Below, in pieces: positions 4,645 through 47,485 of a DNA stretch of 64,000 nucleotides (position 1 is its first letter; each line of letters begins with the position of its first letter). The notes below the pieces were generated by a model. That model was given only the letters and a program-made list of their open reading frames with translations. It was not told the DNA's origin and did no database searches. The stretch comes from Octopus vulgaris (taxonomy: Eukaryota). The stretch is taken from positions 55,118,001 to 55,182,000 of the forward strand of contig OX597817.1 of the NCBI GenBank assembly GCA_951406725.2. Reading direction: 5' to 3'. The translations under genes were made by a program, and so were the position numbers.

Positions 4645-4787
4645 CCTGTCTGTGTTTGCCTTTCAAGTGCTGCGGTTTTACTGAGATCTCCTTTTAGTAG
4701 AAAGAATAGCTATAACTCTTTGACTGCTATTTCTAAATTCGGTGTGTGGTGAGGCAAATCGTTGCTAAACCCTTAATTACTTAGTAT
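4645..4787 (+). mobile_element. Diverged partial copy (terminal ~145 bp) of the 589-bp hammerhead-bearing unit
   Basis: CCTGTCTGTGTTTGCC...AAACCCTTAATTACTTAGTAT aligns to 4848-4992 with several substitutions and indels; followed by a TA-rich tract. Confidence 0.9.
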
Positions 4788-5294
4788 ATATCTATATATC
4801 TATATATATATATATACATATATATCTATATATCTCTATCTTTCTTACCTGTCTGTGTTTGCCTTTTAAGTGCTGTGTTTTTACTGAGATCCCCCTTTTA
4901 GTAGAAGGAATAGCTATATCTCTTTGACTGCTATTTCTAAATTCGGTGTGTTGGTGAGGCAATTCGTTGCTAAACCCTTAATTACTTAGTATTACTTAAA
5001 TTTTCCTCGAATGGGGCTTTTACATACCGAAATCTACTTGGTGTAATTGATAATTATCCCTAATTAATTAATTTCACCCTTTTATTATTACTGATAACCA
5101 TATTTTATCCCAGTAAATGACCACAGCATTTTGTCTTGGCTGCACGCGGGTGGAAGGGGGCTGGTGACACAAACTTTCATTCAAACTTTGAATTTCGTGG
5201 TACTGGTCATGCTTTGGCTCGCTCTGACACTGAGTTGAGATGACGCATTCTAGTATCTCAAAATTTAATATACAATTATTCACAATTGTAGTAT

Positions 5295-5386
5295 CCTGCG
5301 CCGATGAGAGAAGAAGTCTGGGTAAAGTAGAATTTTCTAATTCTTATGATATCCTAAAACTTGATCTCGAAACGTACGTCCGTAGG
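5295..5386 (+). ncRNA. Type I hammerhead ribozyme motif (core variant CCGAUGA), copy 1
   Basis: Stem I CCTGCG/CGTAGG (one G-U); core CCGATGA; stem II GAGA...TCTC closing a long insert; GAAA; stem III C-GTAC-G; GTC cleavage triplet, predicted cut after 5380. Confidence 0.75.
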
Positions 5387-5883
5387 TAACTTAAAATTGC
5401 ATGATGGATTGCCGTCATTTCATTCTTTCTTTCTTACCTGTCTGTGTTTGCCTTTTAAGTGCTGTGTTTTTACTGAGATCCCCCTTTTAGTAGAAGGAAT
5501 AGCTATATCTCTTTGACTGCTATTTCTAAATTCGGTGTGTTGGTGAGGCAATTCGTTGCTAAACCCTTAATTACTTAGTATTACTTAAATTTTCCTCGAA
5601 TGGGGCTTTTACATACCGAAATCTACTTGGTGTAATTGATAATTATCCCTAATTAATTAATTTCACCCTTTTATTATTACTGATAACCATATTTTATCCC
5701 AGTAAATGACCACAGCATTTTGTCTTGGCTGCACGCGGGTGGAAGGGGGCTGGTGACACAAACTTTCATTCAAACTTTGAATTTCGTGGTACTGGTCATG
5801 CTTTGGCTCGCTCTGACACTGAGTTGAGATGACGCATTCTAGTATCTCAAAATTTAATATACAATTATTCACGATTGTAGTAT

Positions 5884-5975
5884 CCTGCGCCGATGAGAGA
5901 AGAAGTCTGGGTAAAGTAGAATTTTCTAATTCTTATGATATCCTAAAACTTGATCTCGAAACGTACGTCCGTAGG
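5884..5975 (+). ncRNA. Type I hammerhead ribozyme motif (core variant CCGAUGA), copy 2
   Basis: Identical to 5295-5386, offset 589; predicted cut after 5969. Confidence 0.75.
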
Positions 5976-6170
5976 TAACTTAAAATTGCATGATGGATTG
6001 CCGTCATTTCATTCTTTCTTTCTTACCTGTCTGTGTTTGCCTTTTAAGTGCTGTGTTTTTACTGAGATTCCCCTTTTAGTAGAAGGAATAGCTATATCTC
6101 TTTGACTGCTATTTCTAAATTCGGTGTGTTGGTGAGGCAATTCGTTGCTAAACCCTTAATTACTTAGTAT

Positions 6171-25790: not shown

Positions 25791-26357
<567 letters not shown>

Positions 26358-29850: not shown

Positions 29851-29853
<3 letters not shown>

Positions 29854-32300
29854 TAGTTTTATTTTTATAGCGTGCTTTCACTTCACTACCGAGCGCAGCT
29901 CTGTGTGCCTTGGGTATGTGCTGTGATTTGTTGTGATGCTCTGATGGTTATTGTATGGAAAGTGTTCTGCGTAATCCAAATTTCATATCTATTTCTTTGG
30001 TAAATCCATGAACTGTCTTTAATAGTGTTTCCAGCTGTTTGTCATTTGCAGCGTATAGTTTTAGGTCATCCATGTATAAAAGGTTGCTGATCGTTTTGCC
30101 GTAACATTTATATCCGCAAACAGTTCTATTTAGCATATCAGATAGAGGTGACAGTTCCAAGCAGAAAAGGAGTGGAGAGAGCGTGTCTCCCTGGAATATT
30201 CCTCTTCTAATGGGGATGGCTTTGGTTTTCATTAGTCCCTCTTTTGTTTGGAGCTGTAGCCATTTATTCATAGTGTCCTATGAATTTTATAATTGTTGGT
30301 GCTACTTTGTTAATGGCTAGTGTTTCGAGGATCCATGTGTGGGGGATGCTATCAAACGCCTTTTTGTAGTCGATCCAGGCCATACTGAGGCCTTTCTTCT
30401 TTCTGTGGCTGTCTTCAGTTATGGCTTTATTAATCATTAGTTGATCTTTACAGCCATATGAGCCTTTGCGGCATCCTTTCTGCTCTTCTGGAAACAGGTT
30501 GTTTTCGTCCAGGTGCTTGTTCAACCTTTGCGATATCACTGCAGTAAATGCCTTGTGCATTGTAGGGAGACGGGTTATTGGTCTGTAGTTTTCTGGTTTT
30601 GCTGTCTCATTTGATTTTGGAATTAAGATGGTTTTCCCCTTCGTGAGCCATTCAGGCATTGTCTCTGGCTCTGCTAGTATGTTGTTAAAGTTTTTAGCCA
30701 GCGTTTTGTGCATTCCTGTTAGATATTTCAACCAGAAGTTGGGGATCTTGTCATGCCCAGGTGGCTTCCAGTTGCTTAGTCTTTGCAGTGCCTGGGTGAC
30801 CTCTTCAGTTGTTATGGGAGTCCAAAGTTGCTCAGATGCTGAGTTTGTTGTTTTAATACTCCTTATTTTTGGTTGTTCGTTCGCCGACCATATTTCTCTC
30901 CAGAATTCTTCCACTTCTTCTGCCGTTGGTACTGCAGTGATTTCTATTTTATTTTTGCCAAGTTCTTGGTAGAACCTTTTGGGGTTGGAGTTGAATTTTT
31001 GTTTTGTTAAAAGAAGGACTGGCGTTTCTCGTACCGGCGGATCCTTTGTGCTTTGGCAAGGATATCTTGCTTTAGCTTTTCTTTTATCTCAGGTAAATCT
31101 TTCTCTGTGATGTATTTGCGGAGTATTTTTGTTTTCTTTTTGTTGCTCAGTAGCGTTGATTGTCTACTGATTTCATTAAGAATCGACAGATCTTTTCTCA
31201 TTTTTTGTATTTTGTTTTGGATGTTATTTATCCACAGGGTTTGTTTGGGTGGTGGTACTCCTGTTTGGATGGGTTTGAGTGAGTATCCAGCTTCTTTTGT
31301 GGCTGCAGTGGCTGCTGCGTATACTAAGTCATTTAGCTCAGTGATATCGCTTTTTGTTTCAGTGGCTATTAGTTCCGTGACGGCTAGGTTTATGCTGTTT
31401 ATAATTGGTGTTGTTGTTTCGTCTATTTTGATTTTTGGGAGGTATGGTCGGTGGTCCATTTTGAGATCTGTGGTTTTTAGTTCTTTGATTATTCTACTTT
31501 TTATATTATCATAATCATTAGGCTCCCCTTCGTTGTTTCCAGGTTTTAGATTTGTGTCGCTTTCGTTCTCATTTGTATGTTCGTTTGTCGTGTTTTGGCT
31601 TGCTGTTTGTCATGTATTATTATGCATCCCTACGGTCTGGGTTTGTCGTTTTTTGCTTACATCGTGTTTGTTGGGAATGTTACGTTTGTCTTCGTGTTTT
31701 ACTGTTTCAGTGTTTATATTGTTGGGCATTGTTGTGTGGCTTCTATCTACATTTTCCTGATGTATTTTTTTCTTTTAGATGTTCTATTTCTATTTCAGAT
31801 ATATTTTTTTTGCGTTGAGAATGTATCTTCGTACGTTAGCTATTTTATTAGGGTTCATTGCTGTGTCCAAGTCTATATTTATGTTATTTTCCTTCCATAT
31901 TTTATATGTATGTGTTGTTGTGTTTTCATTTTTTGGGTAGAGCACTGCTGTGAAGTAAGCGTGTAGGATAGAAATGTATTCCTCACGTGTCCATTTATGT
32001 CTTTTGGGTTTTATTTGCGGGACATGAGGAACAACGTCCGACCCATTATTTTGACGGTCGTCATTTTCGTAGGGTACCGATCTGTTCCTTTCTGTTGTCA
32101 CATTGTTTTGCACGTGTAGTTTTTCGTACATTTTGTGTAGAAAGTTTAAAGTACGTACTTCCCGATTGTTATTCTTGGGTTGAATAATATCGGTGTTATT
32201 TAATTTCTCCGTAGTTTTTTGTACATGGTGTTTGGGTCGGGGATGGTCTGGTGTTGATGGATGGTAATGTTCCACGCATGTTTACATGTGTTGTGTTAGA
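29851..32300 (-). mobile_element. R4/Dong-like RLE-clade non-LTR retrotransposon, near full length at the 5' side, frameshifted and internally deleted
   Basis: Consecutive ORF pieces: 31790..32275 (KWTREEYISILHAYF N-terminal motif), 31007..31459, 30264..30914 (WKPPGHDKIPNFWLK, NYRPIT, EEQKGC, AWIDYKKAFDSIPH), 29948..30271 (GIFQGDTLSPLLF, LLYMDDLKL); conserved 3' UTR abutting (TTA)n. 5' boundary uncertain. Confidence 0.93.
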
Positions 32301-37100: not shown

Positions 37101-37103
<3 letters not shown>

Positions 37104-37439
37104 CGTATTTTTGCCATTTCAATATGGCTAACCCCTAAGGGTGGATGCTACTGTAGTTTTTAGCCCCAGGAGGACACACTCCTCCAGCTGGCCATAGACA
37201 CACTATCTGTGTCCTGTCAGTATTTGCAAAGGGAAGTCATCCTTCCCGTCTTCAACTTATGATACACACGGACTCGAGTTTCGAGGCATTGACCTCTCGT
37301 CAGCGTGTGACAGGATAGTGTGACAGGACACAGATAGTGTGTCTATGGCCAGCTGAAGGAGTGTGTCCTCCTGGGGCTAAAAACTACAGTAGCATCCACC
37401 CTTAGGGGTTAGCCATATTGAAATGGCAAAAATACGTCA
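37101..37439 (-). mobile_element. Fold-back element: 119-bp inverted arms around a 101-bp loop containing a hammerhead ribozyme; Penelope-pLTR-like
   Basis: 37101-37219 is the reverse complement of 37321-37439 with one mismatch; the left end abuts (TAA)n at 37021-37100. Confidence 0.88.
37265..37309 (-). ncRNA. Type I minimal hammerhead ribozyme (canonical core)
   Basis: Minus strand: CACACG CTGACGA GAGG TCAATG CCTC GAAA C TCGA G TC CGTGTG; perfect 6-bp stem I, 4-bp stem II, palindromic stem III, GUC triplet; predicted cut between 37271 and 37270. Confidence 0.92.
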
Positions 37440-37595
37440 CGATGTGTTACCGCTACTGTATATAACTCACTTTGATATTTATCATTGTTTGATTTCACTT
37501 TTTCATTATCAGCGACAGTGGACGCTGGAAAAAATATAAGTATTTGTGAAGGAAATCTAATTCTCGGCGACAATAATACCACCTAATAAATATGA

Positions 37596-38550
37596 AGAAG
37601 AAGAAGAAGAAAATGAAGAAACAACAAAAGCTATAAAACAAATGAAATCCAAACTAAAAACAGAACAGCAACGAACCATGATAAAACTATGGCAAGAAAA
37701 GCCCCTTCATGGTAAATACTGGACTAAACTAAACGCAAAAGAAATAGACAAAGAAAAATCCCAGCAATGGTTGAAAAGCTCAGGACTCAAAGCAGAGACA
37801 GGGGGATTTTTAATTGCAGCACAAGACGAAAGCCTCCCCACTAGAAATTTCCCAAAAACATGTAATGAAAAGAAATATAACAAGTAACTGCAGAATATGT
37901 GGAGATGGACAAGAAACAATAAATCATATTATCTCTGGCTGCCCACTCCTAGCTAAGAAGGAATATATTCACAGACATGACAAAGTTGGAACCTACATAC
38001 ATTGGAAGCTATGCCAAGATTATGGAATAACAACAGAAAAAAGATGGTATAGGCACACACCAGAAAAGGTAAGAGAAAACGAAAAAGCAAACCATACTCT
38101 GGGATATGCCGATACACACAGATAGAGAAATTAAGGCCAACAGACCAGATATAGTTGTCAGAGATCATGAAGAAAAAAAATGCTTTCTAATTGATGTATC
38201 AATACCGGAAGATGACAACGTGTCTCTAAAAGAAATGGAGAAACTTTCAAAATACAAAGACCTGGAAATAGAGGTAAACAGAATGTGGAATCTAAAAACA
38301 GAAACAATTCCTATCATAGTAGGTGCATTAGGCATGATAAAAAAATATTCAAATACATAACAAAAACACCAGGACTTACAAACACATATAACATACAGAA
38401 AATTGCACTACTAGGCACTGCACACATCCTACGCAGAATACTTTCCATACAATAACCATCAGAGAATCACAACAAATCACAGCACATACCTAAGGCACAC
38501 AGAGCTGCGCTCGGTAGTGAAGTGAAAGCACGCTATAAAAATAAAACTAC
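37596..38550 (+). mobile_element. 5'-truncated R4/Dong-like retrotransposon (subfamily 1): linker, CCHC zinc knuckle, RLE endonuclease, 3' UTR
   Basis: WQEKPLHGKY, ETGGFLIAAQD, CRICGDGQETINHIISGC, HRHDKV, RPDIVVRDHEEKKCFLIDVSIP...EKLSKY; frameshifted; 3' UTR followed by (TAA)n. Confidence 0.93.
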
Positions 38551-39536
<986 letters not shown>

Positions 39537-39986
39537 TGTTGAGAAGCTCAGGACTCAAAGCAGAAACATAGGGATTTTTAATTGCAGCACAAGACCAAAG
39601 CCTCCCCACCAGAAATTACCAAAAACATGTAATGAAAAGAAATATTACAAGTAACTGCAGAATATGTGGAGATGGTCAAGAAACAATAAATCATATTATC
39701 TCTAGCTGCCCATTCCTGGCTAAGAAGGAATATATTCACAGACATGACAGAGTTGAAACCTACATACATTGGAAGCTATGCCAACATTATGGAATAACAA
39801 CAGAAAAAAGACTTACAAACACATATAACATACAGAAAATTGCACTACTAGGCACTGCACACATCCTACGCAGAACACTTTCCATACAATAACCATCAGA
39901 GCATCACAACAAATCACAGCACATACCCAAGGCACACAGAGCTGCGCTCGGTAGTGAAGTGAAAGCACGCTATAAAAATAAAACTA

Positions 39987-39989
<3 letters not shown>
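39537..39989 (+). mobile_element. 5'-truncated, internally deleted R4/Dong-like copy (subfamily 1)
   Basis: ORF 39632..39892 CRICGDGQETINHIISSC...YGITTEKR|LTNTYNIQKIALLGTAHILRRTLSIQ; same 3' UTR; TAA repeats on both sides. Confidence 0.92.
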
Positions 39990-40036
<47 letters not shown>

Positions 40037-45860: not shown

Positions 45861-46102
45861 ATGATGCCTCGAAAACACACACACACATACACGCACACGT
45901 ATATATATATATATATATATATATGCACAAATTGAGATAGGGGTTGTAAATGCAACCCTCCATGGGATAACAAATATCCAATATACTGCTAGTGAAGTAC
46001 CCAACAAAGTTAATACATAAATGTTAAGGATTGCGATGCAATCGATTCATTTACTGTATTATATGGGCAAAGGTAAAATGATTTGCCACAAATTACTAAT
46101 AC

Positions 46103-46515
<413 letters not shown>

Positions 46516-46606: not shown

Positions 46607-46900
46607 AGTGCGAAAAAGAAGATAATGCAGAAATTGACATGAAGACATCAGTTTATTTAAAGATATTCAAATCTATATAATGATATTCCAGTCCTACAGC
46701 CGTTTCTATATCCAATTAGTTCAACTACAGAAACTTTACGATTTCTTTTAAAAGTCTTAGAAAAAGCTGAACGACTGCCATGTGTAACTGGTACATTTTT
46801 AAGGACCACCGAAATGCTGGTAAGAATTTTTTCCAGTGCGCTAACAAACCGGTCACATCACCACCTTGACTGTATATTATATATATGTATATATATATAT

Positions 46901-47331
46901 AATAAATATAAGGGTAGCAAAAAATTCTAGAAAAAATTTTCCGCTACCCTTATATTTATTAATTAATGATTTTTTGGCTAATTTTGAAATTAAATCAGCA
47001 GTTTATATTTGCTGCTGAGTAGACCGCGCGATTGCGGTAAGATTTGAAAATTTAGGGCATATGTGACTGGAGGCTTCTTTACCATAGCCTCGTGGACATA
47101 TACTCGTCCTAGGCTCTCTGCTGACGAGGCACGCCAGATGTAAATGAATTTAATTTAATTTAATTAATTCATTTGGCAAAGTTTTGCCGAAACTATGCAT
47201 AGTCCAGAGATGAAAGGGGTAAACGTTTTTATTTCTCATTCTATTTCAGAATTGCAACTATTTAGCGGTATGAGTTTGGCTGCTCTTTCTAGTGAGTCGA
47301 ATGTCCTACATGGTCATTCCTTATATTGTTG
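46901..47331 (+). mobile_element. ~430-bp hammerhead-bearing element in (TA)n with a 5' fold-back terminus
   Basis: 18-bp inverted repeat 46901-46918/46943-46960; internal hammerhead; 3' TTTGGCTGCTCTTTCTAG motif similar to the 589-bp unit; TA repeats on both sides. Confidence 0.75.
47115..47210 (+). ncRNA. Type I hammerhead ribozyme (canonical core, extended stem II)
   Basis: TCTCTG CTGACGA GGCA [GCCA..AAATGAATT..AATTCATTTGGC insert] TGCC GAAA CTATGCATAG TC CAGAGA; perfect 6-bp stem I, palindromic stem III; predicted cut after 47204. Confidence 0.92.
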
Positions 47332-47485
47332 TATATATATATATATAATATAATATAATATATAGAATATATAATGCTATATGTAATACATATTATGATA
47401 TCTACTCAATGTTTATATATATCATATATATTATATATATATATATATATACAGAATCTGTATTATGTATAATATACAACATATT

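What the first reader, a model, noticed from the sequence alone, without database searches (positions are those of the whole stretch)
46901..47331. Monomeric TA-embedded element with a canonical hammerhead, long stem II and 10-nt palindromic stem III
All core nucleotides are intact. Stem III CTATGCATAG can form either an intramolecular hairpin or an intermolecular duplex, so it may cleave as a monomer. Stem II carries an inner hairpin with a (TTAAT)-type loop. Motif order parallels the 589-bp unit despite little identity, which suggests a diverged sister family.
Basis: partly seen in the sequence, partly recalled or inferred. Interest (0 to 1): 0.75.

Follow-up and report, generated by a model that had tools for sequence, protein, structure and literature searches.

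The report
Two-armed Penelope-type hammerhead retrozyme copy
This stretch is one incomplete copy of a dispersed 470-base non-coding repeat that carries a predicted self-cutting RNA motif and was likely pasted into TA microsatellites by a Penelope-type jumping-gene enzyme; it is a new family of a known kind (animal retrozymes), and cutting is untested.

Summary
The hammerhead is real: a canonical type I motif at 47115-47210, cut predicted after 47204, with compensatory changes in stems I and II across 50 relatives. 'Monomeric element' is wrong. The family unit is 470 bp, with at least 134-273 motif copies genome-wide, some in tandem. The window copy is a two-armed insertion: a 49-bp inverted arm joined through GCTACC to a 389-bp forward arm that lacks 74 bases of the unit. 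Family 3' ends fall at two fixed TA-flanked sites, about 143 and 229 nt past the cut, never at the cut. Two-armed insertions use one site per arm (16 of 16 classifiable pairs). The 589-bp family (13 of 13) and an intact Neptune-like Penelope element in this genome (3 of 3) follow the same rule. Verdict: a non-LTR retrozyme, that is, a non-autonomous Penelope-like element. This copy is probably a dead end: it has one ribozyme, and a private base change is predicted to disturb stem II. Kinship with the 589-bp family is weakly supported. Cleavage, expression and circles are untested. This scan has already reported similar families, with the same two-armed pattern, elsewhere in this genome.

The parts
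46873..46899 (.). left TA-rich target tract
   Evidence: sequence
46900..46948 (-). short inverted arm (unit positions 178-227 counted from the cut site) whose 3' end is family end-site B, running into TA
   Evidence: alignment to a full unit
46943..46948 (.). 6-bp microhomology GCTACC at the junction of the two arms
   Evidence: the two arm alignments overlap here
46943..47331 (+). forward arm, 389 bp, about 98% identical to a full 470-bp unit; lacks unit positions 135-208
47115..47210 (+). canonical type I hammerhead: stem I 47115-47120/47205-47210, core CTGACGA 47121-47127 and GAAA 47189-47192
47128..47188 (+). extended stem II: 4-bp base, conserved GCCAG internal loop, inner hairpin 47140-47176 with (TTTAA)n loop; private G at 47176
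47192..47203 (+). stem III: 12-nt palindrome (10 nt plus A15.1/U16.1), hairpin with UGCA loop or intermolecular duplex
47204..47205 (+). predicted self-cleavage between 47204 and 47205 (GUC)
   Evidence: hammerhead consensus; cleavage not tested
47319..47331 (+). family end-site A, 3' end of the forward arm
47332..47451 (.). right degenerate (TA)n target tract

Best explanation
The stretch is a 5'-truncated, two-armed insertion of a 470-bp non-coding hammerhead repeat (a non-LTR retrozyme) that was likely copied into a (TA)n tract by the reverse transcriptase and GIY-YIG endonuclease of an autonomous Penelope-like element. Shown here: the unit, its tandem and head-to-head copies, two fixed 3' ends in TA, one end-site per arm, read-through of the cut site, conservation and covariation of the ribozyme, and intact Neptune-like elements with the same two-end rule. 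Inferred: tandem copies are transcribed; the hammerhead cuts out unit-length RNA that is religated to a circle (about 55% likely; otherwise an uncut multimer is the template); the enzyme nicks both strands of a TA tract and primes reverse transcription internally at site A on one strand and site B on the other; the two cDNAs join, here through GCTACC. This copy has one ribozyme and lacks most of the A-to-B segment, so it probably cannot yield a circle or a new copy.
For: Dispersed family: 134 and 273 exact motif hits against 3 and 2 for reversed controls. Seamless 470-bp tandem. Of 83 arms in 52 loci, 37 end at site A and 32 at site B, and 54 of these 69 run into TA; 5' ends scatter; 65 cross the cut site, 28 exceed one unit, none begins or ends within 8 nt of the cut. 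27 of 52 loci are head-to-head; pairs are AB 16, AA 0, BB 0, with 11 pairs unclassifiable; the window copy is AB too. 589-bp family: 13 of 15 pairs use one site each, 2 unclassifiable; Neptune-like element: 3 of 3 two-armed loci among 19 examined end at +113 and +73. RT plus C-terminal GIY-YIG ORFs of up to 781 aa. Core 5/408 and stem III 1/340 differences against 512/14746 elsewhere, in copies found by DNA similarity alone. 7 of 27 base pairs show two-sided changes; 96% of cells pair against 35-43% when slid. No ATG ORF of 50 aa or more inside a tandem locus. Architecture matches PMC8557442 (passages) and PMC11167929 (parts 1-2 of 4).
Against: No autonomous element sharing DNA sequence with the 470-bp unit was found, so the partner enzyme is inferred from architecture only. 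Cleavage and circles are untested; only 1 of 9 predicted Xenopus retrozymes cleaved in vitro (bioRxiv 10.64898/2026.07.22.740005, part 3 of 5). In the Anolis element uncut RNA was the dominant substrate and ribozyme mutants inserted normally, which weakens the need for a circle. The two arms of a locus are closer to each other than to typical copies (median 3.6% against 6.25%), but the sister arm is the nearest sequence in only 7 of 22 pairs. The hammerhead fold is not the predicted minimum-energy fold (2-5.5 kcal/mol above it). Covariation counts sequences, not independent events, and part of the alignment was found with core-containing patterns. Junction microhomology was checked only for this copy.
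Confidence: 0.8

Rival explanations
1. Same enzyme, but the template is an uncut linear multimeric transcript (or template jumping). The hammerhead is a passenger or acts at another step, and no circle is needed.
For: In vitro the Anolis Penelope-like element used unprocessed RNA, and ribozyme mutants did not change insertion (PMC11167929). Read-through of the cut site (65 of 83 arms) fits uncut RNA equally well. Tandem parents exist.
Against: Core and stem III vary about four times less than the rest of the unit, which suggests that copies that spread needed a working ribozyme. With 5' truncation, linear-only copying would shorten arrays each generation, yet 28 of 83 arms exceed one unit and one arm is two units long; this argument is inference.
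Confidence: 0.35
2. The unit is the detached pseudo-LTR of an autonomous Penelope-like element that I did not sample, so these copies are ordinary 5'-truncated insertions.
For: Same ends, target and inverted arms as autonomous elements; Xenopus retrozymes resemble pseudo-LTRs. Only 150 of 6136 GIY-YIG candidates were scored and 30 fetched.
Against: Units repeat head to tail with no coding sequence between them. The autonomous elements I read have minimal hammerheads with 4-nt palindromes, unlike this one.
Confidence: 0.1
3. A satellite or DNA-level repeat spread by recombination among TA tracts, or a miniature inverted-repeat DNA transposon; the hammerhead is incidental.
For: The window copy starts with a hairpin and has short inverted ends; TA tracts are recombination-prone.
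Against: Fixed 3' ends with scattered 5' ends, the strict A/B rule and the variable arm lengths are signs of reverse transcription. The 'inverted ends' are the two arms' similar end-sites. The ribozyme is conserved and covaries.
Confidence: 0.04

Closest known systems
Metazoan non-LTR retrozymes (coral Acropora, mussel Mytilus, axolotl; Cervera and de la Pena 2020, PMC7229834; parts 2-4 of 6 read)
   Same: Non-coding, AT-rich repeat with one type I hammerhead per unit, in monomers and tandems; stable helix III as in invertebrate examples; well-paired predicted circle (z -4.7); co-occurs with Penelope-like elements.
   Different: Unit slightly longer (470 against 150-450 bp); 61-nt stem II extension; 10-nt palindrome in helix III; mostly one to two units per arm; two-armed insertions with two fixed ends, which I did not see described for retrozymes in the parts read. 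Circles and expression are not shown here.
EN+ Penelope-like elements, Neptune-type (Craig et al. 2021, PMC8557442, passages; Frangieh et al. 2024, PMC11167929, parts 1-2 of 4)
   Same: Partial tandems, inverted 5'-truncated copy, a 'tail' at one end only, microsatellite targets, two internal RT start sites, extension of both target strands, a hammerhead upstream of the ends.
   Different: No ORF; the tail is about 86 nt rather than 30-40; full-size hammerhead rather than a minimal one; no DNA similarity to the autonomous elements sampled.
Xenopus non-LTR retrozymes as non-autonomous PLE derivatives (Li, Clavereau and Pollet 2026, bioRxiv 10.64898/2026.07.22.740005; parts 1-3 of 5 read)
   Same: Proposes the same dependence on Penelope-like elements; solo monomers are common.
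   Different: Their link rests on sequence similarity to pseudo-LTRs and they discuss local tandem growth. Here the link is the insertion footprint, and no sequence similarity to a pseudo-LTR was found.

Membership tests
Type I hammerhead ribozyme | CUGANGA...GAAA...UH core with three helices, helix I open | tested here: met
Type I hammerhead ribozyme | Self-cleavage at the predicted site | not testable with these tools
   needs a transcription assay; folding predicts competing structures, more so in this copy
Type I hammerhead ribozyme | Loop 1-loop 2 tertiary contact | tested here: inconclusive
   a distal stem I (85% paired, no two-sided change) and a conserved GCCAG internal loop in stem II exist; no contact was shown
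Non-LTR retrozyme | Short non-coding, low-GC unit with one type I hammerhead per unit | tested here: met
Non-LTR retrozyme | Tandem copies, each with a complete hammerhead | tested here: met
   met for the family (tandems at L070); not met by the window copy, which has one hammerhead
Non-LTR retrozyme | Expressed as unit-length linear and circular RNA | not testable with these tools
   only contigs of runs guessed to be RNA were available
Non-LTR retrozyme | Autonomous Penelope-like elements in the same genome | tested here: met
Penelope-like insertion pattern | Fixed 3' ends, 5' truncation, inverted truncated copy, tail at one end, microsatellite target | tested here: met
Autonomous Penelope-like element | RT and GIY-YIG ORF attached to the terminal repeat | tested here: not met
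   limited to the loci fetched
Sister family of the 589-bp unit | Sequence homology above chance in the same register | tested here: inconclusive
   z 2.9 whole unit, 3.9 from cut to 3' end, 0 of 300 shuffles each; shared motif pair also in a third family; end-sites out of register

The most novel reading that the evidence does not exclude
The family's insertions record a Penelope-type enzyme copying one ribozyme-generated RNA circle from two fixed internal sites at once, one per nicked target strand. The same rule governs the autonomous element and several retrozyme families in this genome, and a small shared RNA signal (the CTTTGACT...GCTA..CCCTT segment) recruits the enzyme. This would be genomic evidence for the proposed but unshown retrozyme life cycle, with a compact substrate for testing it. 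The 12-nt palindrome would let this ribozyme work both alone and as a dimer.
Probability: 0.4. Interest if true: 0.62.

Novelty: new member of a known kind. Interest (0 to 1): 0.35.

Why it matters
How animal retrozymes get into DNA, and what hammerheads do for Penelope-like elements, are open questions in the papers read. This family gives a 470-nt test substrate with two mapped start sites, a candidate enzyme class with intact ORFs in the same genome, and a clear prediction: one arm per site and read-through of the ligated cut. The class itself is known, the one-sided tail is known for Penelope-like elements, and this scan has noted the two-armed pattern in other families of this genome. The window copy itself is an ordinary, probably inactive insertion.

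Tried and rejected
Rfam at gathering thresholds: no match in the window. The direct-repeat finder was swamped by microsatellites. Sequencing runs: no RNA holder listed on record. Contigs of four runs guessed to be RNA cover most of the unit in short pieces, but they cannot show strand, ends, level or circles, and I laid no silent control, so I draw nothing from them. Search for the autonomous partner: 30 GIY-YIG loci and 4 longer coding regions showed no DNA match to the unit's terminal part apart from unlinked fragments; translated search of 103 records found no ORF joined to the unit. RNAalifold gave only stem I plus a GAC/GUC mispairing, not the full hammerhead. Covariation cannot tell hairpin from duplex in stem III: no two-sided change in 50 copies. 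Same-template test of the two arms was only weakly positive. No covariance model of the two families was built; pairwise alignment against shuffles was used instead. The miniature inverted-repeat transposon reading was rejected because the inverted ends are the 3' ends of two arms. Look-ups of earlier findings by sequence and by nearby place returned nothing. Paper searches for retrozymes or hammerheads in octopus or cephalopods listed no description of this family; I saw only listings for most hits and opened no supplements, where such families could be tabulated (for example those of PMC7229834 and PMC8557442); Repbase and Dfam are not available here.

Full report
Observation. The window comes from a 2.8-Gb, microsatellite-rich genome; earlier scan notes call it octopus-like, which I did not test. 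At 47115-47210 there is a canonical type I hammerhead: 6-bp stem I, CTGACGA, a 61-nt stem II region closed by a 4-bp base, GAAA, the palindrome CTATGCATAG, and TC with the predicted cut after 47204. A strict descriptor finds two such motifs in the window (this one and 37265-37309 on the minus strand) and none in 300 shuffled windows. Rfam reports nothing at its thresholds.

The family. A DNA search gave 121 matches from 40 scored of 1977 candidates, the top 43 at 88-100% identity. Exact patterns gave 134 and 273 hits against 3 and 2 for reversed controls; both are lower bounds, and the wider pattern includes a few unrelated hits. A tandem locus defines a seamless 470-bp unit, with no ATG ORF of 50 aa or more inside it. 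Folded as a circle, the unit is 67% paired, z -4.7 against 40 shuffles.

The ribozyme is under constraint. In 41 arms found by DNA similarity alone, the 12 core positions differ in 5 of 408 cells and the 10-nt palindrome in 1 of 340, against 512 of 14746 elsewhere; of 34 arms covering the motif, 30 have an intact core and 33 the exact palindrome. On 50 aligned copies (of 57 motif hits; I left out 4 that looked like other families and 3 close copies), 96% of cells pair against 35-43% for slid controls, and 7 of 27 pairs change on both sides: 3 in stem I, 1 in the stem II base (G-C to A-U in 8 copies) and 3 in the inner hairpin. These counts include shared ancestry, and part of the set was found with core-containing patterns. 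The inner hairpin is variable in length and largely missing in a few copies. Stem III shows no two-sided change, so hairpin and duplex cannot be told apart. The computed hairpin costs +0.4 kcal/mol and the duplex gives -15.9. Invertebrate retrozyme hammerheads with stable helix III are reported to cleave as monomers (PMC7761336, passages; PMC7229834).

The window copy is not a monomer. It is a 49-bp inverted arm (46900-46948) joined through GCTACC to a 389-bp forward arm (46943-47331), about 98% identical to a full unit and lacking 74 bases. It has one hammerhead, so it could not release a unit-length RNA. It also carries G at 47176 where 43 of 50 copies have C and no other has G. This creates a competing hairpin: the hammerhead fold lies 5.5 kcal/mol above the minimum against 2.1-3.1 in two relatives, and the stem II base has predicted probability 0.01 against 0.5-0.6. 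These are predictions only.

Insertion footprint. I mapped 83 arms in 52 loci, after dropping 8 overlapping loci. 37 end at site A (about 143 nt past the cut) and 32 at site B (about 229 nt); 54 of these 69 run into TA. The other 14 end elsewhere, some probably because alignments break in diverged copies. 5' ends scatter. 65 arms cross the cut site, 28 exceed one unit, and none starts or ends within 8 nt of the cut (about 3 starts expected by chance, so this shows no pile-up rather than avoidance). 27 loci have head-to-head arms. Earlier scan notes on other families prompted a test of arm pairing: AB 16, AA 0, BB 0, with 11 pairs having an unclassifiable end. The window copy is also AB. The 589-bp family follows the rule in 13 of 15 pairs, 2 unclassifiable. 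An intact Penelope-like element does so in 3 of 3 two-armed loci among 19 examined, with ends 73 and 113 nt past its own minimal hammerhead; most of those loci I picked for long open frames. Sister arms are more alike than typical copies (3.6% against 6.25%) but are nearest neighbours in only 7 of 22 pairs.

Likely enzyme. The genome holds many GIY-YIG frames (150 scored of 6136 candidates), including 781-aa ORFs with RT and C-terminal GIY-YIG domains (the RT match is just under Pfam's cut-off) and a Cys motif before the nuclease, as described for Neptune and Nematis. They end in TA. None of those sampled shares DNA with the 470-bp unit, so the partner is inferred. Partial tandems, an inverted truncated copy and a tail at only one end are described for Penelope-like elements (PMC8557442, passages). 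The Anolis enzyme nicks and extends both target strands and starts at two internal RNA sites that bound the tail (PMC11167929, parts 1-2 of 4).

Mechanism, committed. Tandem copies are transcribed (inferred). The hammerhead cuts out unit RNA, which is ligated to a circle (inferred by analogy with PMC7229834; about 55%). A Penelope-type enzyme nicks both strands of a TA tract and primes at A and B (inferred from the ends). The cDNAs run through the cut site (shown) and join head to head (shown). The main rival is an uncut linear template, which the Anolis data favour in vitro.

Relation to the 589-bp unit (window 4842-6170). It has its own type I hammerhead with a long stem II and a 6-nt palindrome. 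Alignment scores exceed shuffles modestly: z 2.9 over the unit and 3.9 from the cut to the 3' end, 0 of 300 each. A motif pair drawn from both families gives 2813 hits against 22 controls; the first 100 listed are mostly 589-family, with 4 from this family and 5 from a third. The shared segment lies between sites A and B here but before the first site in the 589-bp family, so 'sister family' is plausible, not established.

Verdict. A real hammerhead in a new family of a known class, the animal non-LTR retrozymes, whose dependence on Penelope-like elements has been proposed in print. My searches listed no paper on this family, but supplements and repeat databases were not seen. The scan has reported similar families here before. 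Interest 0.35.

Noticed in passing
window 4645-6170: 589-bp tandem hammerhead repeat with a CCGATGA core variant and CGTACG palindrome; young (98-100% identical copies), with arrays of about 11 units at G000:C9:34.22-34.23 Mb, two fixed ends and the same one-site-per-arm rule.
   Followed up: partly
window 37102-37438: Inverted pair (118 bp, 99%) beside an (AAT)n tract, holding a second canonical type I hammerhead at 37265-37309 on the minus strand with palindrome CTCGAG; probably another two-armed retrozyme-like insertion.
   Followed up: no
window 46099-46319: Inverted pair (83% identical) ending in a TA tract just upstream of the finding; possibly an older two-armed insertion of another family.
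   Followed up: no
window 37500-39990, 25893-26219, 29851-29973: Repeated 3' ends of a non-LTR retrotransposon-like sequence, each followed by long (TAA)n tracts; family not identified.
   Followed up: no
L065:406-5172: Apparently intact, high-copy Neptune-like element with an upstream ORF, a 781-aa RT/GIY-YIG ORF, a minimal hammerhead with a TTGATAA core variant and 4-nt palindrome, and a 40-nt tail.
   Followed up: partly
L152 and L153 (G000:C1:43.24 Mb and 93.34 Mb): Third tandem family, period about 547 bp, sharing the terminal motif pair with the 470- and 589-bp families; hammerhead-like cores present but not resolved.
   Followed up: partly
L038, L042, L043, L046, L069: Further type I hammerhead candidates with 4- to 10-nt palindromic stem III, several with long stem II, suggesting many such families in this genome.
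   Followed up: no
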